Source: Candidatus Woesearchaeota archaeon (GTDB lineage Archaea; Nanobdellota; Nanobdellia; Woesearchaeales; GW2011-AR4). From it: a DNA stretch of 64,000 bases. The DNA lies in assembly GCA_016185845.1 (NCBI GenBank), contig JACPMV010000002.1:1564-65563 (forward strand), given 5' to 3'. A program made the position numbers and the translations under genes. This document shows, piece after piece, positions 9,147 to 64,000 of the stretch (position 1 is its first letter; every line of letters starts with the position of its first letter). The notes beneath the pieces were generated by a model. It made no database searches, was not told where the DNA came from, and saw nothing but the letters and a program-made list of their open reading frames with translations.

Positions 9147-9147
9147 A

Positions 9148-9834: not shown

Positions 9835-10343
9835 GCATAAGGCAGATCGGAGTGGTTTGCTACGGAAATATAGCGAGAAGCCAGGTTCTTGGCATCTATT
9901 TAAAGAAATTTCTGAATGATGAGGGCATCAACAATGTCAGAGTCTACTCTGTCGGAACCGCTCCATACGAAGCTTTTCCAGACACCCCTGTTCTAATCAG
10001 AGAAGTTGGAGAAAAATTGAAAGAAAGGGGGGTAAATTCCACGCCAAGAAGAAATTCTTGGACTGAAGAATCAAGAAAAGAATTAGGGTTATCTGATATT
10101 ATACTAGTTGCAGATGAAAAAAGGAAAAAAGAGGTCATGGGTAGATTAGGATATAAGATTACAAGAGATTGCGTTTATACTTTTTATCAGTTTATCGGCG
10201 AGGGAGAAAAAGGCTTCGAAGATTCCTATGATTATGAAAAAAGGCGCCAGGACCCGGTGAAATTCGGAAAAATCTTCGACGAGCTTGAAAGAATAGCAAA
10301 AAAAGCCGCAGAAAGGATCAAACTGATGCAAAACCTTAATTAA
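9831..10343 (+). CDS. Low-molecular-weight phosphatase family protein (LMW-PTP / ArsC-like).
   Basis: P-loop C-x5-R(S): VVCYGNIARSQ near the N-terminus. Size about 170 aa. ATGA overlap with the upstream gene when started at the Met of MSIRQIG. Confidence 0.6.
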   Translation: MSIRQIGVVCYGNIARSQVLGIYLKKFLNDEGINNVRVYSVGTAPYEAFPDTPVLIREVGEKLKERGVNSTPRRNSWTEESRKELGLSDIILVADEKRKKEVMGRLGYKITRDCVYTFYQFIGEGEKGFEDSYDYEKRRQDPVKFGKIFDELERIAKKAAERIKLMQNLN

Positions 10344-10376
10344 GTTTAAATATACTAATATCTCCTCTTTTTTAAC

Positions 10377-13417: not shown

Positions 13418-14248
13418 TTATTTGCCGCCAAATAAGGCCTTATAGTGCTGCTCCGCTGCCCTGCCCTTGTAATGCACGAGAAAAGACACAACTTGCTTTA
13501 AAATAGCGCCAACAGCATAAATTAACAAGTACCAGTAGAATAATATATAGCTTGGCATAAAGTTATAATGCAGGTTTATCAATTCTATAATTGAAATAAC
13601 AGTTAAATGAAGTATATTGGTCGGAGCAGCCCAAAAATCTTTGAATTTATTATAAATATCATTCAGTTTTTTTCCGGTGTCGCTGCCCTGCAAATTAACG
13701 CTCTTCCTGCCTACATTTTTAATATGCCTGCTTTTTATGCGATCCAGGGCAGCATCGCCATGCAGCTTGCTGTTGACTACGGCAGACAGCATGCTGGGAA
13801 TCACGACAGATTTAGAGAATACCGAGCATAAAAATCCAAAAATAAGCACAGATTTCCACCCGGTTTGCAGGAATACTCCAAAAGCCAGGGGGAAAAACAT
13901 AAGATAAGATACCAGCTCGTGGTATATATTCTCCAAATGCACTCCGGTTAAGCTTGATTTTTTCCTGTACCGCGCTATTTCACCATCCACGCAATCCAGC
14001 AGATTCGTAAATTGGATAATCATTATTCCGGCAAATATGCAGCTTAGCTTGCCAAAAAATAAAAAAATGGAACTGAGGAACACCAGAAAAAACTCAATAA
14101 TAGTCACATGATTTGCCTCTATCTTTGTATGCAAGAGGAGCCAAGTAACGTAGATAGAAAGCTTGCTTACATACTTGTTAAACCAAACCCTATATGCATA
14201 TGGGCTGTCATAGCATATTATCCGCAATTGCTTTATAGATTCAACCAT
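13418..14248 (-). CDS. CDP-alcohol phosphatidyltransferase family membrane protein.
   Basis: Multi-TM protein with DCVDGEIARYRKKSSLTGVHLENIYHE, a variant of the D-G-x2-A-R-x8-G-x3-D-x3-D motif with acidic residues E/E in place of the last two Asp. Confidence 0.5.
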   Translation of the reverse strand: MVESIKQLRIICYDSPYAYRVWFNKYVSKLSIYVTWLLLHTKIEANHVTIIEFFLVFLSSIFLFFGKLSCIFAGIMIIQFTNLLDCVDGEIARYRKKSSLTGVHLENIYHELVSYLMFFPLAFGVFLQTGWKSVLIFGFLCSVFSKSVVIPSMLSAVVNSKLHGDAALDRIKSRHIKNVGRKSVNLQGSDTGKKLNDIYNKFKDFWAAPTNILHLTVISIIELINLHYNFMPSYILFYWYLLIYAVGAILKQVVSFLVHYKGRAAEQHYKALFGGK

Positions 14249-47432: not shown

Positions 47433-48176
47433 TTACTTCTTATTTTTCCCGTTTCTGTTTTCCAAATTCCTCATCATTATTGATGCCCTTAATAATGAGT
47501 CAAAGCTTCCGGCATCTGACCAGAATTTCCTTATTTTGTTGTAATAAAGCTGCCCTTTCTTTACATACGCGTCCAGGGCGTCTGTTACCTCTATTTCATT
47601 TCTCCATGAAGGCTTTAGCTTGCGTATTATGCCAAATACCTTGGAATCAAACATGTAAAGCCCGGTCATAGCAAGGTTAGATTTTGGCTTTTTGGGCTTT
47701 TCCTCGACATAAGTTACCTTGCCGTCGTTGACAAGCGCTATCCCGAATTTTTTTGCATCTTCCATGCTTACTTCCTTCAGGAATATCCTAGCGCCTTCCT
47801 TCTGCTTTTCAAACTCTTTTACATAAGGAGCTATGTCTTCCTCGAATATATTGTCGCCAAGTATGACAACGCATTTGTCATCACCCACAAAATCCTTTGC
47901 CAGTCCAAGAGCCTGGCCTATTCCGCCGGCTTCTTCCTGTATCTCATAGGTGAAAGTGGCATCAAAGTTTTTTCCTGACTTCAGCAATTTAAGAAAGTGA
48001 CCTGCATGATCTGGTCCGGATATTATCAATATATTTTTTATTCCGGCCTTCAGCAGGGTATGCAGAGGGCAGTAAATCATCGGTTTCGAATAAACCGGGA
48101 GCAAATGTTTATTTGTAACAAGGGTTAATGGATTTAATCTAGTTCCTGTTCCACCAGCAAGAATAATTCCTTTCAT
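47433..48176 (-). CDS. rmlA: Sugar-phosphate nucleotidyltransferase, short-form glucose-1-phosphate thymidylyltransferase-like.
   Basis: MKGIILAGGTGTRLNPLTLVTNKHLLPVYSKPMIY is the RmlA/NTP_transferase N-terminus. Operon context with rmlB and rmlC. Confidence 0.75.
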   Translation of the reverse strand: MKGIILAGGTGTRLNPLTLVTNKHLLPVYSKPMIYCPLHTLLKAGIKNILIISGPDHAGHFLKLLKSGKNFDATFTYEIQEEAGGIGQALGLAKDFVGDDKCVVILGDNIFEEDIAPYVKEFEKQKEGARIFLKEVSMEDAKKFGIALVNDGKVTYVEEKPKKPKSNLAMTGLYMFDSKVFGIIRKLKPSWRNEIEVTDALDAYVKKGQLYYNKIRKFWSDAGSFDSLLRASIMMRNLENRNGKNKK

Positions 48177-49081
48177 TTTTCTAATATCTCCTTAATATCA
48201 AGATATTTTTTATATTTCCTATCAAGATGTAATATACTATCACGATATAGCCAATCAAATATTCTTAATGCCTGCCTATTTCCCCTATATCTTAATGCCC
48301 AATGGTTTTCGTTTTTAATATTTTGTGTTAATTTAACCATGTTCAAGTTTAAATATTTTATTAAAAAATACTGTATATCCAACAATATTTCTTTTGTGCC
48401 AACTATTTGAAACAATAAAGAATTCTTTTTATAGATGATGCTACCATCTCCCTCAAAAAATCCTTTAATGAATGATCTAACAATTTCTTCATTATCGGAA
48501 ACCTTAATTATTTCGGGAAAAAGCTCCTTTTTTGTTTTGCTTTCAGTAACGCCTAAATTCTCTAGTCTCCTTACAAGATATTTGCTAGATATTTTTAATA
48601 ATGATTGTTCATAGTATTTGTTTGTTCTCTTTAAGAAATCCTTATTTATAAAAATCTTTCCAGTATATCCAAGTAAATTCTTAATTTTTGTTAGAACTTC
48701 TATATCCTTCCTACTTAGCTTTAAGCCGAAAGAATGAGAATTTTTGGTTTTATTTATAAATCCATCACTTAATATCCACCCAAGTACCCAAGCATTATTT
48801 TGGTTAATATCATCAAAGAAATTCATATTAACTTCGTATTTTCTTGCATCTAATTTATATGTTTTATCCCTAATTGGTATCTTGTATTTGCGTAATCTTT
48901 GGCTTATGACCCATTGTGAGACTCCAAGGCTCTTTGCAATCTGATCTTGGGATTTCTTTCTTAGAATATATTCTTCAACCAAAAATTTCTTTGATATATC
49001 ATAACTATTCTTAATTCTCTCAGTGAAATTATCGCTGTTATTTATGTTTCTAAAATTTCCGTAAATGTTTTCAACTTTCAT
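48173..49081 (-). CDS. Free-standing double-motif LAGLIDADG homing-endonuclease-like protein with N-terminal HTH.
   Basis: Two LAGLIDADG motifs (VLGWILSDGF and IKGFFEGDGSI) plus HTH SQDQIAKSLGVSQWVISQRLRKY. ATGA overlap with the downstream rmlA-like gene. Confidence 0.6.
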   Translation of the reverse strand: MKVENIYGNFRNINNSDNFTERIKNSYDISKKFLVEEYILRKKSQDQIAKSLGVSQWVISQRLRKYKIPIRDKTYKLDARKYEVNMNFFDDINQNNAWVLGWILSDGFINKTKNSHSFGLKLSRKDIEVLTKIKNLLGYTGKIFINKDFLKRTNKYYEQSLLKISSKYLVRRLENLGVTESKTKKELFPEIIKVSDNEEIVRSFIKGFFEGDGSIIYKKNSLLFQIVGTKEILLDIQYFLIKYLNLNMVKLTQNIKNENHWALRYRGNRQALRIFDWLYRDSILHLDRKYKKYLDIKEILEK

Positions 49082-52867: not shown

Positions 52868-53796
52868 TTTTTCCTGATGTTCCTGCAGCACCCAACCATT
52901 CTTTTAATTCCTTCCTTCATTTTTATTTTGGCTTCCCACCCAAAAGCCTTCTTTGCTTTTGAGATATCAAAATAGAAGCTGCCAAGCTCGAATTTCTTCA
53001 AATCCTCAGGGAAAGGCACAGCCTTAAAGCTTCCGGATTTACATTCATTAACAACATTCCTGGCTATGTCAATGAATCTGATCCTTTCGCCAGAGCCAAC
53101 ATTAAATATCCCCCCATCAACTTTTGATTCTATTACCTTAATTATCAGCGCTACAAGGTCATCTATATAAATCAGGTCTTTAATGTCCCTGCCATAGCCA
53201 TTTACATAAAATTCCTCGCTGTTCAGGGCTTTCCTGATAAATTTATTTATTATATTGTTCTTGTTCTCGCCACCTATCTCCGGCCCGTACACAATGGACA
53301 TTCTTAGCATGACAAAATTTAGGTTGAAAGCATTTTTGTACAGCTTGCAGTAGTTTTCCGCTGCCTGCTTATGTATGCCATAAAGCGAGACTGGTCTTTG
53401 GCAGCTGTCTTCCGAGATAGGCAAATCCTTTTTTTTGACCCTTCCAAACTGCGCCCTGCTCCCGAAAAAAATATATTTAGAGCCAGGATTGACATTTTTT
53501 CTTGCTTCCAGTATATTCAGCTGGCCGATGCAGTTTACCTCAAGGTCCCCATAAGGCTCAAAATGCGAATCCGGATTAACTATCGCTGCCAGATTAATTA
53601 TGACGTCCTTGTTTTTTACATTGTCTTCAATGCATTTGTAATCTGCTACGCTTCCTTTTACCGCTTTTAGGCTGCCAGCAAATCCTAATTTGCCGATTAC
53701 ATCCGTGTTTTTAGGGCTCAACACGGTCAGATCATAATTACGCCCTGACAGGCTCCTGATTAAATGCAATCCAATGAATCCTGTTCCGCCTATCAA
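52864..53796 (-). CDS. NAD-dependent epimerase/dehydratase (SDR; 4-ketoreductase or 4-epimerase-like).
   Basis: MIGGTGFIGLHLIRSL and YGIHKQAAE (YxxxK). Confidence 0.7.
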   Translation of the reverse strand: MIGGTGFIGLHLIRSLSGRNYDLTVLSPKNTDVIGKLGFAGSLKAVKGSVADYKCIEDNVKNKDVIINLAAIVNPDSHFEPYGDLEVNCIGQLNILEARKNVNPGSKYIFFGSRAQFGRVKKKDLPISEDSCQRPVSLYGIHKQAAENYCKLYKNAFNLNFVMLRMSIVYGPEIGGENKNNIINKFIRKALNSEEFYVNGYGRDIKDLIYIDDLVALIIKVIESKVDGGIFNVGSGERIRFIDIARNVVNECKSGSFKAVPFPEDLKKFELGSFYFDISKAKKAFGWEAKIKMKEGIKRMVGCCRNIRKK

Positions 53797-53859
53797 TAAA
53801 ATGCTTTTATTTCTAATAGCAATCCCTCAGCTTAATCTTAAGTATTCTGCAAACATATA

Positions 53860-53874
53860 ACTATTTAAATAGTT
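53860..53874 (+). promoter_or_regulatory. Second copy of the palindromic TATA-like element AACTATTTAAATAGT, upstream of the sulfatase-fold gene.
   Basis: Identical 15-mer to 3090-3104, 30 nt upstream of the ATG at 53904. Confidence 0.35.
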
Positions 53875-53903
53875 TATTGGTTTCCTACTGTTTCCTAATC
53901 AAA

Positions 53904-55271
53904 ATGAATGCAATACTGCTGGTTGTAGATTCTTTACGGGCGGACCACCTTGGAATATCTGGCTATAAAAGAGATACAAGCCCGAATATAGACCGGCTTG
54001 CAAGAGACGGAGTTTTCTTTTCATCAGCTATTCCGACTTCGCCAAGAACCAGCCCTTCGGTAGGCTCACTTCTTACCGGGCTTTATCCCCATTCCCACGG
54101 GCTGAGGCTGGAGGGGAAAAATAAAGCCAGATTTGAATCTATCAATGTTGTAGACAGGCTAAATAAAAATGCAGTTACAATACAGGAAATCCTAAAATCT
54201 CACGGATACGCTACAATAGGAAATGACATAGAAATGGACAATACCGGGATTGAAAAAGGCTTTGACGAATTCAATTTATTAAAGTGGCGCGTTGCCAACA
54301 AGATAAAAAGGACAATAAAAAAAGCCGTCAAATGGAATTATAATATAGACCCTGCAGAGACTTTAACTGATTTTGCAATAAATCAAATCAAGAAATTAAA
54401 AGACAGGAAATTTTTCTTATACCTCCATTATGTCGGGCTGCATTGGCCTTATACTCCGCCAGAGCCTTATGATGAAATGTTTGACACCGATTATAGAGGA
54501 AACCACACCTTTAATGAAGTCAATGGCAAGATAAACAGGGGAGACCTGATATTTAACAATAGCCTGCCAAAGGAAGAGATTAAACATGCCATAGCCCACT
54601 ATGACGGAGCAATAAGATTTGTAGACGGGCAGATAGGCAGGCTAATCAGCCATCTGGACAGCCTTGGCCTACGCGAAAATACATTGATTGTACTGACTGC
54701 AGACCATGGAGAATGCTTTGGAGAGCATGGGCTTTGCTTCAATCATGGCGAGTACCTCTATGAAGAAGCTGCCAGAGTTCCGCTTATCTTTTTGTATCAC
54801 AAATCTCCTAAGAAAAAGATAGACACCCAGGTGCAATCAACAGATATTATGCCAACAATTCTAGACATTCTTGATATTGAATTAATCGAGAATATAGAAG
54901 GCGCCAGCCTTATGACCTTAGTTAAAGATAATGACAAAGTCAGAGAATATACTTTCGCCGAAAGCGGCATGTCGTTCTTCAAGGAAGACAAGAGGCGCTA
55001 TATGGGAGGAATAAAGGGAAAATGGCGCATGATAAGAACAGACGAATGGAAGCTAATCTATATCCCTCATCCCCAAAAGGACATATTTGAGCTTTACAAC
55101 CTGAAAGATGACCCAATGGAAACAATAAATCTGTTTGAAAAAAATGCCGAGATAGCCAATAAGCTCAGGGAAGAATTGTTTAAATGGATGAAAGACTCTG
55201 ACTCAAGCGAAGACATGGACTTGACTGAAAAATCAAAGAAACTGCTAAAAAAGCTCGGGTATATCGACTAA
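53904..55271 (+). CDS. Sulfatase-fold (alkaline phosphatase superfamily) protein with Thr in place of the FGly cysteine; LtaS/EptA-type phosphotransferase or hydrolase candidate.
   Basis: LLVVDSLRADHLG (metal site), TSPSVGSLLTGLYP aligning to sulfatase CSPSRASLLTGRYP with Cys replaced by Thr and Arg by Val, and LTADHGE (DHG motif). The start was moved to the internal Met of MNAILLVVDSL. Confidence 0.65.
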   Translation: MNAILLVVDSLRADHLGISGYKRDTSPNIDRLARDGVFFSSAIPTSPRTSPSVGSLLTGLYPHSHGLRLEGKNKARFESINVVDRLNKNAVTIQEILKSHGYATIGNDIEMDNTGIEKGFDEFNLLKWRVANKIKRTIKKAVKWNYNIDPAETLTDFAINQIKKLKDRKFFLYLHYVGLHWPYTPPEPYDEMFDTDYRGNHTFNEVNGKINRGDLIFNNSLPKEEIKHAIAHYDGAIRFVDGQIGRLISHLDSLGLRENTLIVLTADHGECFGEHGLCFNHGEYLYEEAARVPLIFLYHKSPKKKIDTQVQSTDIMPTILDILDIELIENIEGASLMTLVKDNDKVREYTFAESGMSFFKEDKRRYMGGIKGKWRMIRTDEWKLIYIPHPQKDIFELYNLKDDPMETINLFEKNAEIANKLREELFKWMKDSDSSEDMDLTEKSKKLLKKLGYID

Positions 55272-55296
55272 TCCTATAAGAAAATTTATAAAGCTC

Positions 55297-56469
55297 TTGC
55301 CTTTTGTTTCTCGCGGCAAGATGGGCATAATCAATTTTTTTCAATCTAAATTCGGTAAAAAGCCAAATATAATCATGATCATGATTGATGGGGCTAGGAG
55401 CGACGTTATTGGATCAGTAAACTACTACAAGCAACTAAAAAAAGATTCTATATTCTGCTCCAAACTGATAACTTATGCCCCTTATACAATAGGCTCTTTG
55501 CATTCGCTGTTTTCCGGAATGTATGGGAACAATAACGGGGTTAATGGTTACTATAAAAGCTACGGCTTTGACGCGAAAAATTGCCTTACTTTGGCGCAAT
55601 ACCTAAAAGAAGCAGGCTACTATACGGAAGCAGATGTTGTTGCAAAAGACATTCTGCCATCTTCAGGCTTTGACAAGATCAGGGTTTACGACGAGTTTAA
55701 GGAAGATTTGACAGAAAGGCACAAGGAGATTTTAAACCAAATCAGTCAAAAAGGGCCTTTCTTCCTGTTTTTGGACTATATAAGCCTCCATACTAACCTG
55801 GTCCATAACGTAATAAAAAAATATTCTGACTTTGACAAGGAATACTTCGACAACAGGAAAAATAATTTAAAGAATTATCTTCAAGAGGTAGAGAAAAGCG
55901 CGAACTACCTTGACAGTTTACTGAAGAAGATAAGTGAGATGGGTTTATTGGACAACACACTCGTTATAATTTTTTCAGACCATGGCACAAGCGTTGGCGA
56001 CAGGCCGGGGGAAAAGGCTTACGGAGTCTACCTTTATGATTATACCATAAGGTGCTTTCTTTACATCATCAGCAAAGATCTGCCCAAAGGCCTTGAAATA
56101 AACGAGCTTGTGAGAAGCATAGACATATTGCCGACCATGCTTGAAATATTAAAAATAAATGAAAAAAAAAGCCATAATAAAATCCAAGGCAAATCATTTT
56201 TGCCGTTAATTAACGGCAAGACGGAAGAAAGGATAGCTTATTCCGAAACAGGCGGCCTTGGAGGCCCGACACCATCTCCAGAAAAACACAACGTATTTGC
56301 TGTGCGCACAAACAAATGGAAGCTGATTTATAATGAGACAAGCAAGAAAAAAGAATTATACGACTTGGAAAATGACGAGGGGGAAATAAACAATCTTGCA
56401 GGCAAAAAACCCGATATTGAGAGATTCCTGTGGGAAGAGATGAAGAACCACTCAGAACCTAAGAAATAA
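55297..56469 (+). CDS. Sulfatase-fold (alkaline phosphatase superfamily) protein, second copy, also with Thr at the nucleophile position.
   Basis: IMIMIDGARSDV, YTIGSLHSLFSGMYG (Thr at the FGly position) and IFSDHGTSVGD. Confidence 0.55.
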   Translation: MPFVSRGKMGIINFFQSKFGKKPNIIMIMIDGARSDVIGSVNYYKQLKKDSIFCSKLITYAPYTIGSLHSLFSGMYGNNNGVNGYYKSYGFDAKNCLTLAQYLKEAGYYTEADVVAKDILPSSGFDKIRVYDEFKEDLTERHKEILNQISQKGPFFLFLDYISLHTNLVHNVIKKYSDFDKEYFDNRKNNLKNYLQEVEKSANYLDSLLKKISEMGLLDNTLVIIFSDHGTSVGDRPGEKAYGVYLYDYTIRCFLYIISKDLPKGLEINELVRSIDILPTMLEILKINEKKSHNKIQGKSFLPLINGKTEERIAYSETGGLGGPTPSPEKHNVFAVRTNKWKLIYNETSKKKELYDLENDEGEINNLAGKKPDIERFLWEEMKNHSEPKK

Positions 56470-56479
56470 TTAAACAGAT

Positions 56480-56833
56480 TTATTCCTGTACATACTCAGC
56501 TCCGGTTGCAAGGCAAATTTCAGCTTTCTTCAGCTCTTTTCCCAGATATGCGGCGTGCTCCAATCTTGTCAGCCAGCGCTTGTTATTTTTTTGGCTATAA
56601 TCAAAAATCGACGTATACAAATCCTGCGCTCTTTTCCCCACGAATTCCTTAAGGATTGTATGGGTGTAATCGCAGATCGCAACCCCTATCTCGAGAGTGT
56701 CCGGATAAATTCTTATCAAAACATAGCATCCTTTATCAATCCTGAAATCCTTATTTGTGTACTTTTTGGCTTTGATTACCTCAAAACTTTTTGAGTATTT
56801 CTGCTTCTTAACCCATTTTGGCATTTCTGTCAT
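56480..56833 (-). CDS. Hypothetical protein.
   Basis: 117-aa ORF with coding-like composition. No recognisable family. Confidence 0.3.
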   Translation of the reverse strand: MTEMPKWVKKQKYSKSFEVIKAKKYTNKDFRIDKGCYVLIRIYPDTLEIGVAICDYTHTILKEFVGKRAQDLYTSIFDYSQKNNKRWLTRLEHAAYLGKELKKAEICLATGAEYVQE

Positions 56834-56917
56834 GCATTAAAGGAAGATTATTCCCGATTTAAAACTATTGGTAAAAACATCAAAAAGGCGAACCGAAACC
56901 TTTAAATACTATTACTA

Positions 56918-57478
56918 GTGACACTAGTAGCTATGAAAAAAGTAGTATGGCTAAATAAATCTAACGGGCAATTATGCGTTACAATACCTAAAGACTCCGG
57001 AGTAAATGAAGGGGAAATTGTGAATGTGGAAAAAGAGAAGGTCAAGTCCATAGTTTATTCTTCGGTAACCGGCGACCTTTTCCATTATGGGCACCTTCGG
57101 CTGCTGCAAAGAGCCAATGAACTTGGAGATTTTCATATATGCGGCGTACTGACAGATGAGGCCATAAAATCCTATAAGCGGGATCCTATAGCGGGATTCA
57201 AGGAAAGAAAATCCATCATATCCTCGCTTTTGTGCGTTGATATGGTAATGCCGCAGCACAGCCTTGATCCGACGGACAATCTTAAGAAAATACATGAGCA
57301 GTTTGAGAATGCCAAGCTGGTTCTTGTCCTTGGCTCCAACTGGAAAAAAGTGCCTGGATCGGAGTATATCAATAAAATAAAAGGGGAGATAGTGCAGCCG
57401 CCATTTTATGAAAAATTATCCACTGACAACATTATAAATAAAATCTTTAAAACTTATGGAAGAGGCAGACAAAAATGA
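56918..57478 (+). CDS. HxGH cytidylyltransferase (TagD/glycerol-3-phosphate cytidylyltransferase-like) with a possible N-terminal AbrB/SpoVT-like swapped-hairpin domain.
   Basis: [15 protein letters not shown] (HxGH) and LTDEAI. N-terminal about 45 aa, [24 protein letters not shown], resembles AbrB/MazE-type domains. Confidence 0.6.
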
Positions 57479-58773
57479 AAAAAGTATATGTAGGGATGAG
57501 CACCGATGTCCTGCACCATGGGCATATAAATATAATATCGGCTGCAAGAAAGCTTGGGGAAGTTACAGTTGGGTTGCTTACTGACGAAGCAATTGCGAGC
57601 TTCAAGAGGGTGCCTTTGCTTTCATACGGGCAGAGAAAAAAAATAATAGAGAACATAAAAGGAGTCAAGGAAGTAATTCCGCAGGAAACCCTTGATTATG
57701 CCCCAAATTTAATTAAGCTAAAGCCCGATTATGTAGTGCACGGAACTGACTGGAAAACTGGAGTTCAAAAACATATAAGGTATAGGGTAATAAAAACACT
57801 AAAGGGGTGGAACGGCAAGCTCATAGAGCCAGAATATACAAAAGGGATATCCTCAACACAGCTTATAAACGAGATGCTGGAAATAGGCACAACTTCTGAG
57901 ATAAGGCTGAAAAAGCTGAGGAAACTGCTGGAGCTAAAGCCTTTAGTCAGGCTTATGGAGGTCCACAATGGCCTGACAGGAAGAATAGTGGAAAAAGCAA
58001 AGATAGTGCAGGGAAATTCTATAAGGGAGTTTGACGGAATGTGGGAAAGCAGCCTGACAGATTCCATTTCCAAAGGCAAGCCGGACATTGAGTATGTGGA
58101 TATAACCTCAAGGCTGCATACAATCGACCAGATATTTGACGTCACAACAAAGCCAATGGTAGTTGATGCCAATAACGGGGGAGTTCCTGAACATTTTGTA
58201 TATACTGTAAAGACACTTGAAAGGGTCGGAGTCTCCGCTGTCATAATAGAAGACAAGACCGGGCTTAAAAAAAATTCCCTTTTTGGGACTGACGCCAATC
58301 AAATGCAGGATTCAATAGAGAATTTCTGCAAAAAGATTTCCGCAGGAAAGAAAGCTCAGGTAACTGAGGATTTCATGATTATTGCGAGAATAGAGAGCCT
58401 TATACTGAAAAATGGAATGGAGGATGCAATTAAAAGGGCAAAAGCGTACATAGAATCCGGTGTTGACGGGATCATGATACACAGCAAGGAAAAAAGCCCG
58501 AAAGAAATCCTGGAATTCTGCAGGCGATACAGGGGTTTTGACAAAAAAGTTCCGCTAGTAGCTGTCCCGACAACATACAATGAAATAACTGAAGAGGAGC
58601 TGATAAAAGCCGGAGTGAATATTGTGATATACGCAAATCATCTGCTAAGAAGCGCGTACCCAAGCATGGTCAGGGCTGCAGAGCTTATACTGAAAAACCA
58701 CAGGGCGCAGGAAGCAGACAAGCTGTGCATGCCGATAAAGGAAATACTTGAATTGATTCCCGGAGCAAAATGA
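57475..58773 (+). CDS. pepM: Phosphoenolpyruvate phosphomutase with fused N-terminal cytidylyltransferase domain (Fom1-like architecture).
   Basis: N-terminus: [18 protein letters not shown] (HxGH CyTase). C-terminal about 290 aa in the ICL/PEP-mutase family with the PepM-specific [13 protein letters not shown] (EDK-x5-NS) motif. ATGA overlap with the upstream gene. Confidence 0.8.
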
Positions 58774-59888
58774 TAAGCTGCAAGAAATTTTATGACTGCC
58801 TGCTGGAAAATGAAATTGATTTTTTTAGCGGAGTTCCTGATTCTTTATTGAAGGACTTTTGCGCTTACGTGACTGACAATGCAGAAGGCAAGAAAAATAT
58901 AATAGCTGCAAATGAGGGAAATGCAATTGCAATAGCTTCAGGATACCATCTTTCTACGGGAAAATTTGGATTGGTTTATATGCAGAATTCCGGATTGGGC
59001 AATACAATAAACCCTTTGACATCGCTTGCCGACAAAGAGGTTTATTCAATCCCGATGCTCCTATTGATTGGATGGCGGGCAGAGCCTGGTATTAAGGATG
59101 AGCCGCAGCATATCAAGATGGGAAAAGTCACTCTTGGATTGCTTGAAACCATTGGAATTAAATATGAAATATTGAATGACAATTTTGAGGAAATCATTGA
59201 AAAAGCCAAAAGCCATATGGAAAATGAAAAATCTCCCTTTGCGATTGTTGCAAGGAAAGGGGCTTTTGAGGAATACAAGCTTAAAACTAAAAAAGAAACA
59301 AATTACGAGCTTAATAGGGAAGACGCAATAAGGCTTATAGTGCCTTTGCTTGACAAAGATGATATAATAATCTCAACAACAGGAATGACTTCAAGGGAGC
59401 TTTTTGAGCTGAGGGAGGCAAACAAGGAAGGGCATGAAAAGGATTTTCTTACAGTAGGATGCATGGGGCATTCTTCTTCCATTGCTTTGGGAATTGCCTT
59501 GGAAAAACCAGAAAGGAATGTTTACTGCCTTGACGGAGACGGCGCTTTGATAATGCACATGGGAGCATTGTCCACAATAGCTTCTTTAAATCCTAAGAAC
59601 TTCAAGCACATTGTTTTTAACAACTTTGCACATGACTCTGTTGGCGGGCAGCCGACTGCCGCATACAATATTGATATTCCAGCTATTGCAATGGCAAGCG
59701 GCTATGTTTACGCAGATTCTGCAGAAACCAAAGATGACCTTATCGATAAAATAAATAAAATGAAAAATATTGACGGTCCTGCGCTTCTTGAAATAAAAGT
59801 CAACAAAGGCCACAGGAAAGACCTGGGAAGGCCCACAAGGACGCCGATAGAGAACAAGGAAGATTTTATGGGGTTTTTATCTGGTTAA
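58770..59888 (+). CDS. ppd: Phosphonopyruvate decarboxylase (ThDP-dependent).
   Basis: ThDP-binding motif [33 protein letters not shown] (GDG...NN). About 370 aa, immediately downstream of pepM with overlapping stop/start. Confidence 0.8.
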
Positions 59889-59889
59889 A

Positions 59890-61026
59890 ATGCATCAAAA
59901 AGAATATTTCGGGCTCAATTCAATAATCAATTTAAAGAAAATCCTGTCTAAATACAAACCAAAAAGCATATTTCTAGTCACCGGCAAAAACTCTTACGAA
60001 AAATGCGGCGCAAAGTCAATTCTTGATAAAATCCTTAAGGGCTACAATGTAATTCATTTCTATGATTTTGATGTAAATCCGAAACTTCTTGACATTAAAA
60101 AAGGAATTAAGTTATTCAAGAAAAATAAATGCGATTTTATCATTGCTATCGGAGGCGGCAGCGTGATGGACGTCGCAAAGTCAGTAAACTCATTTGCCGC
60201 AAATGATGGAAAGCCGGAAGATTATCTCCAAAAAGGAAAATCCATAGAAAAAAAAGGCAAAGTTCTTGTTGCTATTCCCACAACAGCAGGCTCAGGAAGC
60301 GAGGCAACAAAGTTTGCAGTTATCTACCTAAACAAGACAAAATATTCTCTGGACAATGAGTTTATAATTCCGGATTATGCAATAATAGATCCCCAGTTTA
60401 TAATGAACCTGCAGAAAAGCATAACATCTTCCGCAGGAATGGATGCACTGTCGCAGGGAATTGAGTCATACTGGTCCGTACATTCCACCAATCAATCCAA
60501 AAAGTATTCTAGAGGTGCAATCAAGCTTGCCATAAGAAATCTTGCCAAAGCAGTCAATGGCAATAAATCCAGCAGAATAGCAATGGCTAAAGCAGCGCAT
60601 TTGGCAGGAAAGGCAATTAATATATCAAAAACAACAGCATGCCATGCAATCTCTTATCCCATAACCTCATATTTCAATGTTCCTCACGGGCATGCGGTTG
60701 CTCTGACTATACCCTCAATGCTTAAATACAATCTAGATATCAATGAAAATGATATGATTGACAAGCGCGGAGTAAAATACGTCAAAAAAACAATCAATGA
60801 AATTGTAAAACTATTAGGATATGCCAATGTTAATGATGCAAGCATTAAAATACAAAATTTGATGAAACAAATCGGATTATCAACAAAACTCAGCGAATTG
60901 GGAATAAAAACAAATGAAGATATAGAAATAATTATAAAAAACGGGTTTAACCCGGGAAGAGTCAGGAACAATCCAAGGTTATTGACAGAGCAGGCTTTAA
61001 GGAAAATACTGGAGGATATAAGATGA
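59890..61026 (+). CDS. Iron-containing (group III) alcohol dehydrogenase; phosphonoacetaldehyde reductase candidate (2-hydroxyethylphosphonate-forming).
   Basis: AIGGGSVMDVAKSV (GGGSxxD Fe-ADH motif) and metal-binding His residues (CHAISYP...HGHA). Position directly after pepM-ppd. Confidence 0.7.
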   Translation: MHQKEYFGLNSIINLKKILSKYKPKSIFLVTGKNSYEKCGAKSILDKILKGYNVIHFYDFDVNPKLLDIKKGIKLFKKNKCDFIIAIGGGSVMDVAKSVNSFAANDGKPEDYLQKGKSIEKKGKVLVAIPTTAGSGSEATKFAVIYLNKTKYSLDNEFIIPDYAIIDPQFIMNLQKSITSSAGMDALSQGIESYWSVHSTNQSKKYSRGAIKLAIRNLAKAVNGNKSSRIAMAKAAHLAGKAINISKTTACHAISYPITSYFNVPHGHAVALTIPSMLKYNLDINENDMIDKRGVKYVKKTINEIVKLLGYANVNDASIKIQNLMKQIGLSTKLSELGIKTNEDIEIIIKNGFNPGRVRNNPRLLTEQALRKILEDIR

Positions 61027-61779: not shown

Positions 61780-62433
61780 CTAATATTTCTTTACTAAGCC
61801 GATAATTTCTGAAATATCTTTAATGTAATGGTCTCCTTTAGCGCTCTTTTCTATGCAGGCGGATTTTATACCTGCGAGCTTTGCGCCTCTCATTTCGTAT
61901 TCTTTGTGCCCTACAAAAATGGCTTCAAAAGATTTTACATTTAATTTTTTAAGCATTGCTTCGTAGGATTCCTTCCGGTCTTTTGTATATCCGGTTACGC
62001 TTGAGCACACTATGACATCAACAAACTGCGCCAAGCCTATTTTTTTAAACCATTCCCATTTTTTCTCTTCTGTAGTTGCAGTGTCAGTCAGAATTCCTAT
62101 TTTTATGCCCAGCGACTTTATTTTCTCAAATGTGCTATGGGCATTTTCCTTAATCTTTATATTTGAAAAATTCTGCCTGAAAACAGCGGCAAACTCATTA
62201 AAAAAATTGCCGTCAAATTCTATTTTAAGGTATTCCAGGGTTTTTTTGAGATGCTCATCTTTTGAAATATCATTCTTGTAGAGTTGCAGGGCATATTCGT
62301 CATAGGCCTTGATAAACTGCTTTGCAGATACTTTATGGCCCCTTTCCATGAGAAAATCAAGTATTAGTTTTAATGTTTCATCGTCCCTGTAATATACCAA
62401 GTCCCCGGCATCAAATATTACTGCCTTAATCAT
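61780..62433 (-). CDS. HAD-superfamily hydrolase (phosphatase).
   Basis: MIKAVIFDAGDLVY is HAD motif I. The start was moved to the internal Met (cat at 62431-62433). Confidence 0.6.
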   Translation of the reverse strand: MIKAVIFDAGDLVYYRDDETLKLILDFLMERGHKVSAKQFIKAYDEYALQLYKNDISKDEHLKKTLEYLKIEFDGNFFNEFAAVFRQNFSNIKIKENAHSTFEKIKSLGIKIGILTDTATTEEKKWEWFKKIGLAQFVDVIVCSSVTGYTKDRKESYEAMLKKLNVKSFEAIFVGHKEYEMRGAKLAGIKSACIEKSAKGDHYIKDISEIIGLVKKY

Positions 62434-62466
62434 GCACCAGTTTTGCAATAACATATATAAATACGT

Positions 62467-63546
62467 TTGGTTTCAATGCCCTATCCGAAAATGATTGAGC
62501 TAAGAAATGACAGGCAAAGGTCAGAATACATAAAGAACTTATTAAAAGAATTCTTTCCCGGAACAGCAGCCTTTACTGACAAGTTTATAGACGTAGGCGC
62601 TATGAATTATGTTTATGAGGCAGAAGCCGGTGGGCATGTCATCTATCTGAAGCAAGCCCTGGACGATGCAAAAAACAAGGAAAAAATAGGCAAGGATTTG
62701 GCAGGCATACCGAAAAACAGGATAGGCTACGAGGATAAATATATAGAGACAATCAGCAAATTCCTGCCAAAAGAGATCGAATTGCCTAAAATCCTCAAGT
62801 ACGATAAAGAAAATAATATACTAATCATTTCTGATGTAAAGAAAGGAGGGACACTTCTTGAGGAATCGCTTCTCAATGGAAATTTCAACGCTAAAACAGC
62901 ATATAATCTTGGCAAGTTCCTTGGACTGTCGCATAAAAACACAATCGGCAGAAACATAACAATAAGGGGCTCTGAGGAAAACGATGTTGATAACTGGGAA
63001 ATTTTCCTGAAGATGAGGACAACAGGAATACTGCAAAAAGAAAAATTTTCAGATGATGTTGTAAAAAATGTCAATGATGTTTATGAGGATGTAAAATATA
63101 ATTACATCAATAATGTTGTCATAAACATGGACTGCTGCCCTAAAAACGTGTTTGAAAGGAAAAATGGCTCTATCGGATTAGTGGATTTCGAGCTGGCTTC
63201 CGGCATCGGTGATCCGGCTTATGACCTAGGATTTTTAATCGGGCATTACCTTATAATGCTTGCCATCAGAACTGATAAGGTTGAAGAGGCAATATCTTCA
63301 ATACAGAGCATCCTGAAAGGATACAGAGAAGAAATGAACTTCTTAAATGATAAGAATGACAATGAGAGGCTTGTAAAATACAGCGGCATGATCATGATAT
63401 ATCGGGTTGCGGGCTCAAGCCCGGCGCCTTACATTAAAGCTGATAAAATGCCTTTAATAAAAGAAATTGGGATTCAGCTTATAACACGAAATTTCCACAA
63501 TTTTGATGAAGTATTCTACTATATCAGAAAACGATTAAAAAATTAG
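62467..63546 (+). CDS. Aminoglycoside-phosphotransferase/choline-kinase-family small-molecule kinase (LicA-like).
   Basis: Brenner-like catalytic region DCCPKNVFERKNGSIGLVDFELAS (H/DxDxxxxN ... D-F-E). N-terminal nucleotide-binding lobe. About 360 aa. Confidence 0.55.
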   Translation: MVSMPYPKMIELRNDRQRSEYIKNLLKEFFPGTAAFTDKFIDVGAMNYVYEAEAGGHVIYLKQALDDAKNKEKIGKDLAGIPKNRIGYEDKYIETISKFLPKEIELPKILKYDKENNILIISDVKKGGTLLEESLLNGNFNAKTAYNLGKFLGLSHKNTIGRNITIRGSEENDVDNWEIFLKMRTTGILQKEKFSDDVVKNVNDVYEDVKYNYINNVVINMDCCPKNVFERKNGSIGLVDFELASGIGDPAYDLGFLIGHYLIMLAIRTDKVEEAISSIQSILKGYREEMNFLNDKNDNERLVKYSGMIMIYRVAGSSPAPYIKADKMPLIKEIGIQLITRNFHNFDEVFYYIRKRLKN

Positions 63547-63559
63547 CCGCTTATTTAAT

Positions 63560-64000
63560 TTATTTTACTATCCTCTTATACAATCCCTTCAATTCTTCCA
63601 AATCTATTATTTTTAATATGAACAGCAAAGCAACGTATACTAACGATGATATCAACAATACTATAGCTGTTTCAATCCACACATTTAATTCAATTATTTT
63701 TTTCAAACCCCATATAGTAAAAGTAAAAATAATTCCAGCAAGAAAAGTCTTTGCCCATACTGCTTTCGGGAAAGAGATATCAATAAACCTTCTCATGTTT
63801 GCAAGCCCCATTGACATCATAATCAGATAGCTTAAGGTTGTCGATATAGCGGCGCCGATTATTCCTATGTAGGGTATTAAGATTATGCTTGCTATGAAAT
63901 TAAATATTGCCGCAGTATAAACTATTTTAGTAGTTATCTGGGGCTCCCTTATACCTCCAAAGAAATCTATATTTGTCGCATATATAACTGCAAATATCAT
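63560..64000 (-). CDS. Wzx/MATE-like flippase, C-terminal portion. The gene continues beyond the window end (5' partial).
   Basis: Highly hydrophobic C-terminal segment with several TM helices, resembling the C-terminus of polysaccharide-biosynthesis (PST) family proteins. The ORF is open to the window edge. Confidence 0.45.
   Translation of the reverse strand: MIFAVIYATNIDFFGGIREPQITTKIVYTAAIFNFIASIILIPYIGIIGAAISTTLSYLIMMSMGLANMRRFIDISFPKAVWAKTFLAGIIFTFTIWGLKKIIELNVWIETAIVLLISSLVYVALLFILKIIDLEELKGLYKRIVK

What the first reader, a model, noticed from the sequence alone, without database searches (positions are those of the whole stretch)
53877..56469. Two sulfatase-fold proteins with Thr replacing the formylglycine cysteine: candidate phospho(no)-headgroup transferases
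Both adjacent ORFs have the alkaline-phosphatase/sulfatase N-terminal metal site (VVDSLRADHLG; MIDGARSDV) and the DHG motif. At the position of the sulfatase C-x-P-x-R signature they read TSPSVGSLLTG and TIGSLHSLFSG, with Thr for Cys and no Arg. A Thr nucleophile in this fold is characteristic of LtaS/EptA/MdoB-type transferases that move phosphoglycerol, phosphoethanolamine or related groups onto glycans or lipids, not of sulfatases. They lie directly upstream of the phosphonate module and are therefore candidates for installing or removing the phosphonate or phosphoramidate decorations.
Basis: partly seen in the sequence, partly recalled or inferred. Interest (0 to 1): 0.6.

Follow-up and report, generated by a model that had tools for sequence, protein, structure and literature searches.

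The report
Thr-nucleophile sulfatase-fold pair in archaeal glycan island
Two neighbouring genes of a tiny groundwater archaeon look like sulfatases but cannot be sulfatases, because the key cysteine is a threonine; they recur as a pair next to genes that make, import or activate phosphonate and related head-groups, so they are good but unproven candidates for the enzymes that attach such groups to surface sugars.

Summary
ORF1 (53904-55271) and ORF2 (55321-56469) of a Candidatus Woesearchaeota contig (MBI2654872.1, MBI2654873.1) have the two-domain S1-sulfatase fold. Both keep the Asp / Asp-His metal ligands. Both carry Thr where sulfatases have the formylglycine Cys/Ser, and Val or Leu where sulfatases have Arg.

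This is a family trait. All 240 close homologs and the 150 best 50%-identity representatives have Thr/Ser there. None has C/S-x-P-x-R.

The proteins are not LtaS/EptA members. Sequence and fold place them beside S1 sulfatases and phosphonate monoester hydrolases, and they have no signal peptide or TM segment.

The tandem pair is conserved in DPANN glycan islands next to a flippase. Of 25 loci, 9 also carry a PepM-Ppd pathway, 2 a PhnD-type importer with cytidylyltransferases, and 1 a glutamine-kinase/C26 phosphoramidate module. One ORF2 homolog is fused to a LicC/PntC-like nucleotidyltransferase inside an AEP cluster.

The reverse test is weaker: only 5 of 32 PepM-selected loci carry the pair.

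Best reading (about 0.45): cytoplasmic Thr-dependent phospho(no)-head-group transferases acting on nucleotide-activated donors. Hydrolase and mutase roles are not excluded. No biochemistry exists.

The parts
53904..55271 (+). SULF1: 455-aa leaderless sulfatase-fold protein with a Thr nucleophile (MBI2654872.1). The ORF listing ORF starts at the TTG at 53877.
   Evidence: Pfam Sulfatase 6e-55 plus SGSH_C. AF2 model pLDDT 88. Foldseek top 50 are S1 sulfatases and PMHs, TM 0.67-0.75. 100% identical to P0001.
54048..54050 (+). ORF1 Thr49 codon (ACC), at the formylglycine Cys position. The +4 residue is Val53 (54060-54062) where sulfatases have Arg.
   Evidence: Alignment to 4upl. Thr/Ser in all aligned relatives. 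Coordinates.
53928..53930 (+). ORF1 Asp9, first metal ligand (VVDSLR). Arg12, Asp14 and His15 just after it are family-invariant.
54702..54707 (+). ORF1 Asp267-His268 (ADHGE) metal ligands. Invariant His281 (54744-54746) lies about where sulfatases and PMHs have a Lys.
   Evidence: Alignment to 4upl 'SDHGDFLGDHWMGEK'. Invariant columns. Coordinates.
55321..56469 (+). SULF2: 382-aa leaderless paralog (27% identical to SULF1) with a Thr nucleophile (MBI2654873.1). The ORF listing ORF starts at the TTG at 55297.
   Evidence: Pfam Sulfatase 6e-26 plus SGSH_C. AF2 pLDDT 85. Foldseek top 50 are S1 sulfatases incl. choline sulfatase. ORF1-ORF2 blastp 27% identity, E 4e-30.
55486..55488 (+). ORF2 Thr56 codon (ACA), at the formylglycine position. 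The +4 residue is Leu60 (55498-55500).
   Evidence: Alignment to 6hr5. T in 94 and S in 27 of 121 family sequences, never Arg at +4. Coordinates.
55978..55983 (+). ORF2 Asp220-His221 (SDHGT) metal ligands. Asp23 (55387-55389) is the first ligand.
56918..57478 (+). Stand-alone cytidylyltransferase-like protein (PF01467). It travels with PepM in the DPANN-type clusters.
57475..58773 (+). Fom1-like fusion: an N-terminal HEP-cytidylyltransferase-type domain plus PEP mutase.
   Evidence: TIGR02320 1e-121. PDB 5x3d (Fom1 CyTase domain) 1.9e-51 and PEP mutase 5unc 2e-43.
58770..59888 (+). Phosphonopyruvate decarboxylase.
   Evidence: TIGR03297 1.6e-150, above cut-off.
59890..61026 (+). Fe-alcohol dehydrogenase. 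It is the probable phosphonoacetaldehyde reductase giving 2-hydroxyethylphosphonate.
   Evidence: Pfam Fe-ADH. TIGR03405 Phn_Fe-ADH 1.8e-56, below cut-off. Role inferred from the PepM-Ppd-ADH order (PMC8942020).
61023..61778 (+). LicC/PntC-like nucleotidyltransferase (NTP_transf_3).
   Evidence: PDB LicC 1jyk 7.6e-14 and PntC-AEPT 6pd1 1.7e-10.
62467..63546 (+). APH-like kinase. The HAD hydrolase at 61780-62454 (-) lies next to it. Together with the LicC-like gene this may be a LicA/LicC-type alcohol-phosphate activation arm.
   Evidence: Weak Pfam APH hit, 1.9e-4. L009 has an NTP_transf_3::kinase fusion next to the pair. The role is an inference.
63560..64000 (-). C-terminal part of a membrane protein that runs off the window end. 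It is probably the convergent Polysacc_synt flippase that follows the cluster in related loci.
   Evidence: Hydrophobic ORF. A flippase occupies this position in L011, L013, L020, L031 and L032. Not tested directly.

Best explanation
SULF1 and SULF2 are two anciently diverged, catalytically competent, cytoplasmic members of a very large Thr/Ser-nucleophile sister clade of the formylglycine sulfatases.

Proposed mechanism:
1. A single metal ion is held by Asp9 / Asp267-His268 in SULF1 and by Asp23 / Asp220-His221 in SULF2.
2. This metal activates Thr49 (SULF1) or Thr56 (SULF2).
3. The Thr attacks the phosphorus of a mono-anionic, activated phospho(no)-diester. The likely donors are the nucleotide-activated head-groups made by the neighbouring cytidylyltransferases. 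In this window that means CMP-2-hydroxyethylphosphonate from the Fom1-like PepM fusion, and a second CDP/CMP-X from the LicC-like enzyme. In other genomes it would be CMP-AEP, CMP-methylphosphonate, an imported phosphonate, or cytidine diphosphoramidate.
4. CMP leaves, and a covalent phospho(no)-Thr intermediate forms.
5. The head-group passes to a sugar hydroxyl of a lipid-linked glycan on the cytoplasmic face. The adjacent Polysacc_synt flippase then exports the glycan.

The two paralogs either form a hetero-oligomer or serve two different donor/acceptor pairs.

Shown: fold; Thr at the nucleophile position; conserved metal ligands; absence of sulfatase-specific residues; absence of leader or TM segments; conserved pairing; synteny; the fusion.

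Inferred: that the chemistry is transfer and not hydrolysis; the identity of donor and acceptor; the cytoplasmic-face location of the reaction.
For: 1. Thr/Ser at the nucleophile column and a non-Arg residue at +4 hold in every one of about 385 relatives. The Asp / Asp-His ligands are invariant in both families.
2. The tandem pair is conserved: SULF1 is present in 19 of 22 SULF2-selected loci that have upstream sequence.
3. The neighbouring head-group supply module varies while the pair stays (counts over 25 distinct SULF2-selected loci).
   - PepM-Ppd in 9 loci: the Fom1-like CyT-PepM with Fe-ADH in 8, and the PepM::NTP_transf_3/AEP cluster in L028.
   - A PhnD-type ABC importer with two NTP-transferases in 2 loci.
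   - A glutamine-kinase/Peptidase_C26/cytidylyltransferase (Cj1416-1418-like) module directly upstream of SULF1 in L015.
   - A LicC::kinase fusion in L009.
   For comparison, PepM occurs in only 1.6% of archaeal genomes (PMC8942020).
4. In L021, L026 and L041, SULF1 sits directly after the Fe-ADH, inside the phosphonate cluster.
5. Rosetta-stone fusion: P0225 is NTP_transferase::SULF2 (639 aa). It lies in a PepM::NTP_transf_3 - Ppd - aminotransferase (AEP) cluster next to the flippase.
6. In L028, L042 and L043 the SULF1 slot is taken by a full-length NPP-family (PF01663) protein, which comes from another branch of the same superfamily (that NPP enzymes use a Thr nucleophile on nucleotide diesters is general knowledge).
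7. Many 36-42%-identical bacterial relatives carry 4-7 N-terminal TM segments in front of the same domain. That is the architecture of the lipid-donor head-group transferases, and it is hard to rationalise for a plain hydrolase or a mutase.
8. The window's own enzymes would make CMP-HEP: Fom1 CyTase domain 1.9e-51, Ppd 1.6e-150, Fe-ADH. No LicD was found among the window ORFs scanned by Pfam.
Against: - No biochemical data exist for any member of this clade.
- Thr nucleophiles also serve hydrolases and mutases in this superfamily.
- The reverse association is weak. Only 5 of 32 PepM-selected loci with adequate flanks have the pair or its NPP variant: 3 of 6 at >=71% PepM identity and 2 of 26 below.
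- About a quarter to a half of pair-bearing loci show no head-group gene within 10 kb, e.g. L001, L007 and L029.
- A CDP-alcohol phosphotransferase sits next to or near the pair in 8 loci (L004, L006, L009, L014, L015, L020, L022, L026). It could itself be the transferase.
- A conserved protein with 9-12 TM-like segments and no family match also travels with these islands.
- A fusion does not say which reaction comes first.
- Cytoplasmic location is inferred only from the absence of hydrophobic N-termini.
Confidence: 0.45

Rival explanations
1. The two proteins are Thr-dependent hydrolases. They would act as phosphodiesterases, phosphonate-monoesterases or nucleotide pyrophosphatases. They would trim, edit or recycle intermediates, for example by cleaving CMP-phosphonate as FomD does in fosfomycin synthesis, by removing a head-group, or by hydrolysing a pyrophosphate-linked carrier. 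They would not transfer the head-group.
For: - The closest characterised structures are hydrolases: S1 sulfatases and the promiscuous phosphonate monoester hydrolases/phosphodiesterases 2vqr, 2w8s, 4uph and 4upk.
- The N-terminal nucleophile region also matches Pfam Phosphodiest/NPP.
- An NPP-family protein replaces SULF1 in three loci.
- A CDP-alcohol phosphotransferase is often adjacent and could do the transfer.
- Many relatives are secreted single-domain proteins.
Against: - The genes sit on the same strand within biosynthetic gene strings, next to the flippase, and are leaderless. A degradative 'removal' enzyme would be expected outside the cell.
- The fusion to a cytidylyltransferase would create a futile cycle if the partner simply hydrolysed the product.
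- The multi-TM architecture of relatives is typical of transferases.
Confidence: 0.25
2. They follow the EptA/LtaS logic in full. A CDP-alcohol phosphotransferase first puts the activated head-group on a membrane lipid, giving a phosphono- or phospho-lipid. The Thr enzymes then move it from that lipid donor to the glycan. They would not use the nucleotide donor directly.
For: - A CDP-OH_P_transf gene is immediately divergent from SULF1 in L004, L006, L014, L020, L032 and L033, and lies within 10 kb in L009, L015, L022 and L026.
- The window has one at 13418-14248 beside a flippase.
- From general knowledge, all characterised Thr-type head-group transferases of the superfamily use lipid donors.
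- Relatives with TM anchors exist.
Against: - The DPANN proteins have no membrane anchor.
- One is fused to a soluble nucleotidyltransferase.
- Several pair-bearing loci lack a nearby CDP-OH_P_transf.
Confidence: 0.15
3. They are cytoplasmic phosphomutases or phosphatases of the alkaline-phosphatase superfamily, like phosphopentomutase or cofactor-independent phosphoglycerate mutase. They would prepare a sugar- or alcohol-1-phosphate for the neighbouring nucleotidyltransferases.
For: - They are leaderless, have a Thr/Ser nucleophile, and are adjacent to and in one case fused with NTP-transferases.
- There are weak hits to the Metalloenzyme/iPGM core.
Against: - Similarity to iPGM and phosphopentomutase is confined to the shared core (E about 1e-5).
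- The active site has lost the cationic Arg of sulfatases, and in ORF1 probably the Lys too. That argues against dianionic monoester substrates (inference).
- Close relatives are extracytoplasmic or TM-anchored, where a mutase makes no sense.
- This idea gives no reason for a conserved pair.
Confidence: 0.07

Closest known systems
Formylglycine-dependent S1 sulfatases and S1_0 phosphonate monoester hydrolases/phosphodiesterases (e.g. PsS1_NC 6pt4, BT1918 7oz8, RlPMH 2vqr/9gve, BcPMH 2w8s, SpAS 4upl/4upi)
   Same: Same two-domain fold (N-terminal alpha/beta core plus SGSH_C subdomain; TM 0.67-0.75). These are the best sequence matches (E 1e-34 to 1e-27). The Asp and Asp-His metal ligands are the same, and ORF1 keeps the His of the 'PHWP' motif (GLH180WPY).
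   Different: The nucleophile is Thr, not Cys/Ser-derived formylglycine. The motif Arg is Val or Leu. The G-K-x-H pair after the 'GY.T' strand is absent (read directly from the sequence; not aligned by a tool). In ORF1 the Lys after the DHG motif is about replaced by invariant His281. There is no signal peptide. The genes sit in a biosynthetic, not a catabolic, context.
LtaS / EptA (MCR) / OpgB (MdoB) / YejM-type head-group transferases of Pfam PF00884
   Same: Thr nucleophile with an Asp/Glu plus Asp-His single-metal site. The ORF1 motif DHGE-x2-GE-x-G-x4-HG resembles the EptA/MCR-1 'DHGESLGENGVYLHG' motif (the MCR-1 sequence is recalled from memory and was not tested). The proposed chemistry is the same: a covalent phospho-Thr intermediate, then transfer of a phospho-head-group to a glycan or lipid.
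   Different: NCBIfam scores are 20-45 bits against cut-offs of 500-1250. There is no N-terminal 5-TM domain and no extracytoplasmic location. They carry the sulfatase-type C-terminal subdomain. No LtaS or EptA structure appears among the top 50 Foldseek hits. The likely donor is nucleotide-activated, not a membrane phospholipid (inference).
NPP-type phosphodiesterases / nucleotide pyrophosphatases (Pfam PF01663)
   Same: Thr nucleophile. The N-terminal nucleophile segment of ORF1 matches PF01663 (3.7e-15). A bona fide PF01663 protein occupies the SULF1 position in L028, L042 and L043. NPP substrates are nucleotide diesters and pyrophosphates.
   Different: Only partial profile coverage. The six-ligand bimetallo site was not demonstrated. 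The overall fold and best matches are sulfatase-type.
Phosphonyl-tailoring (Pnt) pathways and the fosfomycin/methylphosphonate early steps (Fom1, Fom2, FomC, Fom3, MpnS, PntC, LicC/LicD)
   Same: The neighbours reproduce Fom1 (CyTase-PepM), Ppd and Fe-ADH. In related loci there are also B12-radical-SAM and MpnS homologs and LicC/PntC-like enzymes. Bacterial pepM clusters 'encoding multiple sulfatases' have been noted before (PMC8942020). From memory (paper not held), the Nitrosopumilus methylphosphonate cluster was also reported to contain sulfatase-like genes proposed to make phosphonate esters.
   Different: The transferase proposed for the bacterial Pnt pathways is LicD-like (PMC6697681). 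No LicD was found among the window ORFs scanned. The later Pnt steps 'remain enigmatic' (PMC6697681 abstract), and no sulfatase-fold phosphonyl transferase has been characterised.

Membership tests
S1 formylglycine-dependent sulfatase | C/S-x-P/A-x-R maturation motif at the nucleophile position | tested here: not met
   ORF1 has T-S-P-S-V and ORF2 has T-I-G-S-L at the aligned position. The motif occurs nowhere else in either protein. No relative has it in sulfatase context. Thr cannot yield FGly (PMC5066984).
S1 formylglycine-dependent sulfatase | Two-domain sulfatase fold with Asp/Asp-His(Asn) metal site | tested here: met
   Pfam PF00884 plus PF16347. The Foldseek top 50 are all S1 sulfatases (incl. 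choline sulfatase), plus PMHs for ORF1. D9/D267/H268 and D23/D220/H221 are conserved.
S1 formylglycine-dependent sulfatase | Lys-x-His pair and second Lys that bind sulfate and resolve the FGly hydrate | tested here: inconclusive
   After the 'GY.T' strand, ORF1 reads GNDIEM and ORF2 reads EADVVA where sulfatases have G-K-x-H. This was read from the sequence; that segment was not aligned by HMMER. The Lys after DHG is about replaced by His281 in ORF1, with an alignment offset of one residue.
S1 formylglycine-dependent sulfatase | Maturation enzyme (FGE or anSME) in the genome | not testable with these tools
   No FGE Pfam hit and no CxxxCxxC ORF of at least 200 aa in the 64-kb window. The rest of the genome is not available.
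LtaS / EptA / OpgB head-group transferases | Thr nucleophile with Glu/Asp plus Asp-His metal site | tested here: met
LtaS / EptA / OpgB head-group transferases | N-terminal multi-TM domain and extracytoplasmic catalytic domain | tested here: not met
   No hydrophobic 19-mer reaches the 1.6 threshold in ORF2. In ORF1 the only one lies in the extension upstream of the annotated ATG start at 53904. None of 208 DPANN family members has an N-terminal hydrophobic segment.
LtaS / EptA / OpgB head-group transferases | Family HMM score above curated cut-off | tested here: not met
   P_eth_NH2_trans 43.8 bits (cut-off 500). EptA 33.7 (660). LtaS 23-27 (970). YejM 23-32 (825).
LtaS / EptA / OpgB head-group transferases | Transfers a phospho-head-group from a donor to a glycan or lipid acceptor | not testable with these tools
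   Only indirect evidence: synteny and a fusion with head-group activation genes.
NPP / PF01663 phosphodiesterase | Full-length PF01663 match and bimetallo Zn site | tested here: inconclusive
   ORF1 scores 56.8 bits, but its best-matched stretch covers only the N-terminal 62 profile positions. ORF2 scores 25 bits over 40 positions. Second-site ligands were not identifiable without model coordinates.
Thr/Ser-nucleophile 'sulfatase-like hydrolase/transferase' clade (uncharacterised) | [TS]-x-[PQ]-[ST]-(non-Arg)-x-S-[ILM]-x-[TS]-[GS] motif, plus the DHG motif, plus the SGSH_C domain | tested here: met
   All 120 ORF1 homologs and the 150 best of 14,686 representatives with E<=1e-30 share it. ORF2 has the variant Y-[TS]-[IL]-[GA]-S-L.

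The most novel reading that the evidence does not exclude
The leaderless SULF1/SULF2 pair is a new class of alkaline-phosphatase-superfamily transferase. It would take nucleotide-activated head-groups directly (CMP-hydroxyethyl-, aminoethyl- or methyl-phosphonate, CDP-alcohols, cytidine diphosphoramidate). Through a phospho(no)-threonine intermediate it would install them on lipid-linked glycans inside the cell. That would make it the missing 'phosphonyl transferase' of archaeal phosphonoglycan synthesis, and would give a function to a very large uncharacterised Thr-type 'sulfatase' clade (14,686 representatives at E<=1e-30, the 150 best all Thr/Ser-type).
Probability: 0.3. Interest if true: 0.75.

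Novelty: new variant of a known kind. Interest (0 to 1): 0.58.

Why it matters
How phosphonates are attached to cell-surface glycans is still open. Rice et al. (PMC6697681) state that the steps after C-P bond formation 'remain enigmatic'. [quoted passage not shown]

This pair gives a concrete, clonable candidate for that step in archaea. It has clear catalytic residues to mutate, and its probable donor (CMP-HEP) can be made with known enzymes.

The work also shows that a very large set of proteins annotated 'sulfatase' or 'arylsulfatase A-like' cannot be sulfatases. The 150 best representatives, out of 14,686 at E<=1e-30, are all Thr/Ser-type. This matters for sulfur-cycle and CAZyme-style annotation of metagenomes.

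Finally, it documents that genome-reduced DPANN archaea invest in several alternative phospho(no)-head-group supply routes for their surface glycans: synthesis, import and phosphoramidate.

Tried and rejected
- The Metcalf 2012 methylphosphonate paper is not held. A search for 'MpnS + sulfatases + phosphonate' found nothing. The reported sulfatase genes of the Nitrosopumilus cluster are therefore cited from memory only.
- Literature searches for a characterised Thr-type S1-like enzyme found only the SulfAtlas remark that such proteins are not sulfatases.
- The 266-aa protein that follows the pair in L004, L006 and L014 has no Pfam or NCBIfam match. It is unrelated to the 262-aa ORF at window 11174-11962.
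- True sulfatase was considered and rejected: there is no FGly motif.
- A decayed pseudo-enzyme was considered and rejected: ligands and nucleophile are invariant over hundreds of sequences.
- LtaS/EptA membership was considered and rejected: scores, topology and fold neighbours all fail.
- Rfam scan of the whole window gave 0 hits. The repeat scan of 53700-57000 found only short matches that look like chance.
- The 'CTP-like gene adjacent' filter failed because the genes overlap by 4 bp. Those sub-counts were not used.
- I could not inspect model coordinates, so a possible second metal site is untested.

Full report
**1. What is there**

The region holds two same-strand ORFs. The mechanical ORFs start at TTG codons (53877 and 55297). 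The public annotation and all homologs begin at internal ATGs, giving ORF1 = 53904-55271 (455 aa, MBI2654872.1 'sulfatase') and ORF2 = 55321-56469 (382 aa, MBI2654873.1 'sulfatase-like hydrolase/transferase'). Both come from a 72.9-kb contig of a Candidatus Woesearchaeota archaeon.

Both proteins match Pfam Sulfatase (6e-55; 6e-26) and the sulfatase C-terminal subdomain SGSH_C. AlphaFold models are confident (pLDDT 88 and 85, pTM 0.88). The 50 best Foldseek/PDB matches of each are all S1 carbohydrate, aryl or choline sulfatases, plus the phosphonate monoester hydrolases for ORF1, at TM 0.67-0.77. No LtaS, EptA or NPP structure is among them.

The two ORFs are old paralogs, 27% identical with E 4e-30.

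**2. The Thr observation is correct and is a family trait**

HMMER alignments to solved sulfatases put ORF1 Thr49 (codon 54048-54050) opposite the FGly cysteine of SpAS2 (4upl: C-G-S-S-R against T-S-P-S-V). They put ORF2 Thr56 (55486-55488) opposite that of 6hr5 (C-A-A-S-R against T-I-G-S-L).

The metal ligands are present: Asp9 and Asp267-His268 in ORF1, and Asp23 and Asp220-His221 in ORF2.

The trait holds across relatives:
- In 119 aligned ORF1 homologs (34-83% identity) the nucleophile column is T or S, and the +4 column is I/V/F/L/M/A/H/Y/C, never R.
- In 120 ORF2 homologs the nucleophile column is T (94) or S (27), with L/I/M/F/V at +4 in all but one, which has E.
- A full HMMER scan of 1.84 billion cluster representatives found 14,686 relatives at E<=1e-30. 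The 150 best (30-55% identity) are again all Thr/Ser-type, apart from one degenerate domain with Ala.

ORF1 therefore belongs to a very large Thr-nucleophile sister clade of the true sulfatases, and ORF2 to its own Thr/Ser-type family. SulfAtlas explicitly excludes such Thr proteins from the functional sulfatases, because Thr cannot be oxidised to formylglycine (PMC5066984).

By direct reading, the sulfatase G-K-x-H segment is absent in both ORFs. In ORF1 the Lys that follows the DHG motif in sulfatases and PMHs is replaced, within one alignment position, by the invariant His281. The active site has thus lost cationic residues. I take this, as an inference, to favour mono-anionic diester-type substrates.

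**3. Not LtaS/EptA members**

NCBIfam scores for EptA, MCR, LtaS and YejM models are 20-45 bits against cut-offs of 500-1250. The best, still sub-threshold, matches are arylsulfatase, PehA and choline-sulfatase models.

Neither protein has a TM or signal-like segment. None of 208 DPANN family members has one.

In contrast, most of the more distant relatives (many probably bacterial) carry a signal or anchor. Many have 4-7 N-terminal TM segments (about 190 aa, with no Pfam match) in front of the same catalytic domain. Others are tandem arrays of 2-4 domains.

**4. Genomic context**

Downstream in the window lie the following genes:
- a stand-alone cytidylyltransferase-like gene;
- a Fom1-like cytidylyltransferase::PEP-mutase fusion (PDB 5x3d 1.9e-51; TIGR02320 1e-121);
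- phosphonopyruvate decarboxylase (1.6e-150);
- an Fe-alcohol dehydrogenase;
- a LicC/PntC-like nucleotidyltransferase (1jyk 7.6e-14; 6pd1 1.7e-10);
- a HAD hydrolase and an APH-like kinase;
- the end of a membrane protein that is probably the flippase.

The predicted product is 2-hydroxyethylphosphonate activated as CMP-HEP. This is an inference from the Fom1/Fom2/FomC analogy.

The rest of the window is one long glycan-biosynthesis island of sugar-nucleotide enzymes, glycosyltransferases, a PMT_2 GT-C enzyme and flippases.

**5. Comparative genomics, forward direction**

I examined 25 distinct loci chosen only by similarity to the sulfatase-like proteins. Nearly all are Woesearchaeota/Nanoarchaeota, one is a Hydrogenedentota bacterium, and the count includes the window itself.

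SULF1 is present in 19 of the 22 loci that have upstream sequence. It is usually immediately upstream of SULF2, sometimes with a methyltransferase between them. A convergent Polysacc_synt flippase usually follows.

What sits beside the pair varies:
- PepM and Ppd in 9 loci. In eight (window, L008, L011, L013, L014, L020, L021, L026) it is the Fom1-like CyT-PepM, with the Fe-ADH wherever the contig extends that far. In L028 it is a PepM::NTP_transf_3 fusion with Ppd and an aminotransferase (an AEP cluster). Extras are a B12-radical-SAM gene in L011, L021 and L028 (also next to the pair in L010) and a methylphosphonate synthase homolog in L014 (6b9s 2.4e-59).
- A PhnD-type binding protein with ABC transporter, two NTP-transferases, a methyltransferase and a divergent CDP-alcohol phosphotransferase, in L004 and L006.
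- A glutamine-kinase-like::cytidylyltransferase fusion, a Peptidase_C26 gene and an NTP-transferase directly upstream of SULF1 in L015. The same module is in this window at 6228-11165.
- An NTP_transf_3::kinase fusion in L009.
- Only a LicC-like NTP-transferase in five loci (L012, L016, L022, L023, L025), and none of these genes in the remaining seven (a methyltransferase in four of them).

In L021, L026 and L041, SULF1 sits directly after the Fe-ADH, inside the phosphonate cluster.

One ORF2 homolog (P0225) is fused to an NTP-transferase inside an AEP-type cluster next to the flippase. Another (P0214) is fused to a methyltransferase. In L028, L042 and L043 a full-length NPP-family protein replaces SULF1.

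PepM occurs in only 1.6% of archaeal genomes (PMC8942020), so 9 of 25 is a strong enrichment.

**6. Reverse direction**

I also took 80 metagenome loci selected by similarity to the window's CyT-PepM (64-80% identity). Of the 32 with adequate flanks, only 5 carry the pair or its NPP variant: 3 of 6 at >=71% identity and 2 of 26 below.

The pair is therefore not an obligatory part of HEP clusters in general. The link is specific to the DPANN glycan islands. The pair looks like a generic module that works with whichever activated head-group a genome supplies.

**7. Mechanism**

The most economical reading is Thr-based covalent catalysis on an activated phospho(no)-diester, with transfer to a glycan hydroxyl at the cytoplasmic face before flipping. 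The arguments for transfer over hydrolysis or mutase are:
- the biosynthetic gene-cluster position;
- the fusion to a cytidylyltransferase;
- the multi-TM architecture of close relatives, which is the hallmark of head-group transferases in this superfamily (general knowledge: LtaS, EptA, OpgB).

The arguments against are:
- the nearest characterised relatives are hydrolases;
- a CDP-alcohol phosphotransferase is often adjacent and could be the real transferase, possibly creating a lipid donor that the Thr enzymes then use;
- a conserved membrane protein with 9-12 TM-like segments and no family match travels with these islands;
- there is no biochemistry at all.

I put the direct transferase model at about 0.45, the hydrolase model at 0.25, the lipid-donor transferase variant at 0.15 and the mutase/phosphatase model at 0.07.

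**8. Novelty**

'Sulfatase' genes in pepM clusters have been noted in passing (PMC8942020). From memory, the same was noted for the Nitrosopumilus methylphosphonate cluster; that paper is not held. The transferase proposed for the bacterial pathways is LicD-like (PMC6697681).

New here:
- these 'sulfatases' are a conserved, leaderless, Thr-type pair with an S1-sulfatase fold;
- the pair is coupled to several alternative head-group supply modules;
- one member is fused to a PntC/LicC-like enzyme;
- they belong to a very large, uncharacterised Thr clade.

I class this as a new variant of a known kind (alkaline-phosphatase-superfamily phosphoryl transfer enzymes), with moderate-to-good interest. 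It turns the open 'phosphonyl transferase' question into a directly testable one.

Noticed in passing
window 6228-11165 (+): A module resembling the Campylobacter O-methyl-phosphoramidate pathway (the Cj1415-1418 comparison is from memory). It contains a 972-aa fusion of a cytidylyltransferase-like domain with PPDK_N/PEP-utilizer domains (glutamine-kinase-like), then Peptidase_C26, a low-MW phosphatase and an NTP_transf_3 gene. In L015 the same module lies directly upstream of the SULF1-SULF2 pair.
   Followed up: partly
L014 12915-14150 (also L041, L079): A 411-aa cupin in a DPANN-type PepM-Ppd-FeADH cluster is a methylphosphonate synthase homolog (PDB 6b9s 2.4e-59; HEPD 6b9r 5.8e-35). This suggests methylphosphonate production by Woesearchaeota-like archaea in groundwater and sediment metagenomes.
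   Followed up: partly
L010 11181-12650, L011 5271-6743, L021 6994-8511, L028 8552-9994: B12-binding radical-SAM genes sit between the pair and the Fom1-like PepM. Together with Ppd and Fe-ADH this mirrors the Fom1/Fom2/FomC/Fom3 set of fosfomycin biosynthesis, so some of these islands may make 2-hydroxypropylphosphonate-type head-groups.
   Followed up: no
window 20184-22043 (+); L004 4685-6718; L013 1561-3384; L020 1406-3439; L029 3172-4983 and others: A conserved 600-720 aa integral membrane protein with 9-12 TM-like segments and no Pfam or NCBIfam match recurs in these DPANN glycan islands (42-79% identity between loci). It may be a polymerase, a GT-C-like enzyme, or an alternative head-group transferase.
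   Followed up: partly
window 56480-56833 (-) versus L008 3419-3778 (+): The small DUF4346 (pterin-binding-like, MtrA C-terminal-like) gene between SULF2 and the cytidylyltransferase is on the opposite strand in the window, but on the same strand in the otherwise syntenic locus L008. No flanking inverted repeats were found.
   Followed up: partly
window 48173-49081 (-): A 302-aa ORF with weak LAGLIDADG_3 and HTH_50 hits lies between a glucose-1-phosphate nucleotidyltransferase-like gene and a dTDP-glucose dehydratase-like gene. It may be a homing-endonuclease remnant inside the sugar-nucleotide operon.
   Followed up: no
L030 (bacterial metagenome contig, P0116): Two tandem TM-anchored Thr-type sulfatase-like genes (635 and 623 aa) are flanked by three NPP-family (PF01663) genes and a GT2-GtrA gene. 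Paired Thr-'sulfatases' next to NPP-like proteins therefore also occur in this (probably bacterial) surface-glycan locus.
   Followed up: no
L004 12609-13409, L006 12484-13287, L014 11047-11910: A conserved 266-aa protein with no Pfam or NCBIfam match immediately follows SULF2 and precedes the NTP-transferase in the importer-type loci. It is absent from the window.
   Followed up: partly
window 38660-41335 (-) and whole window: An 891-aa protein with 14 TM-like segments has no family match. No Rfam family (no tRNA or rRNA) is detected anywhere in the 64-kb window, which is almost entirely glycan-biosynthesis genes, including five DegT-type aminotransferases.
   Followed up: no
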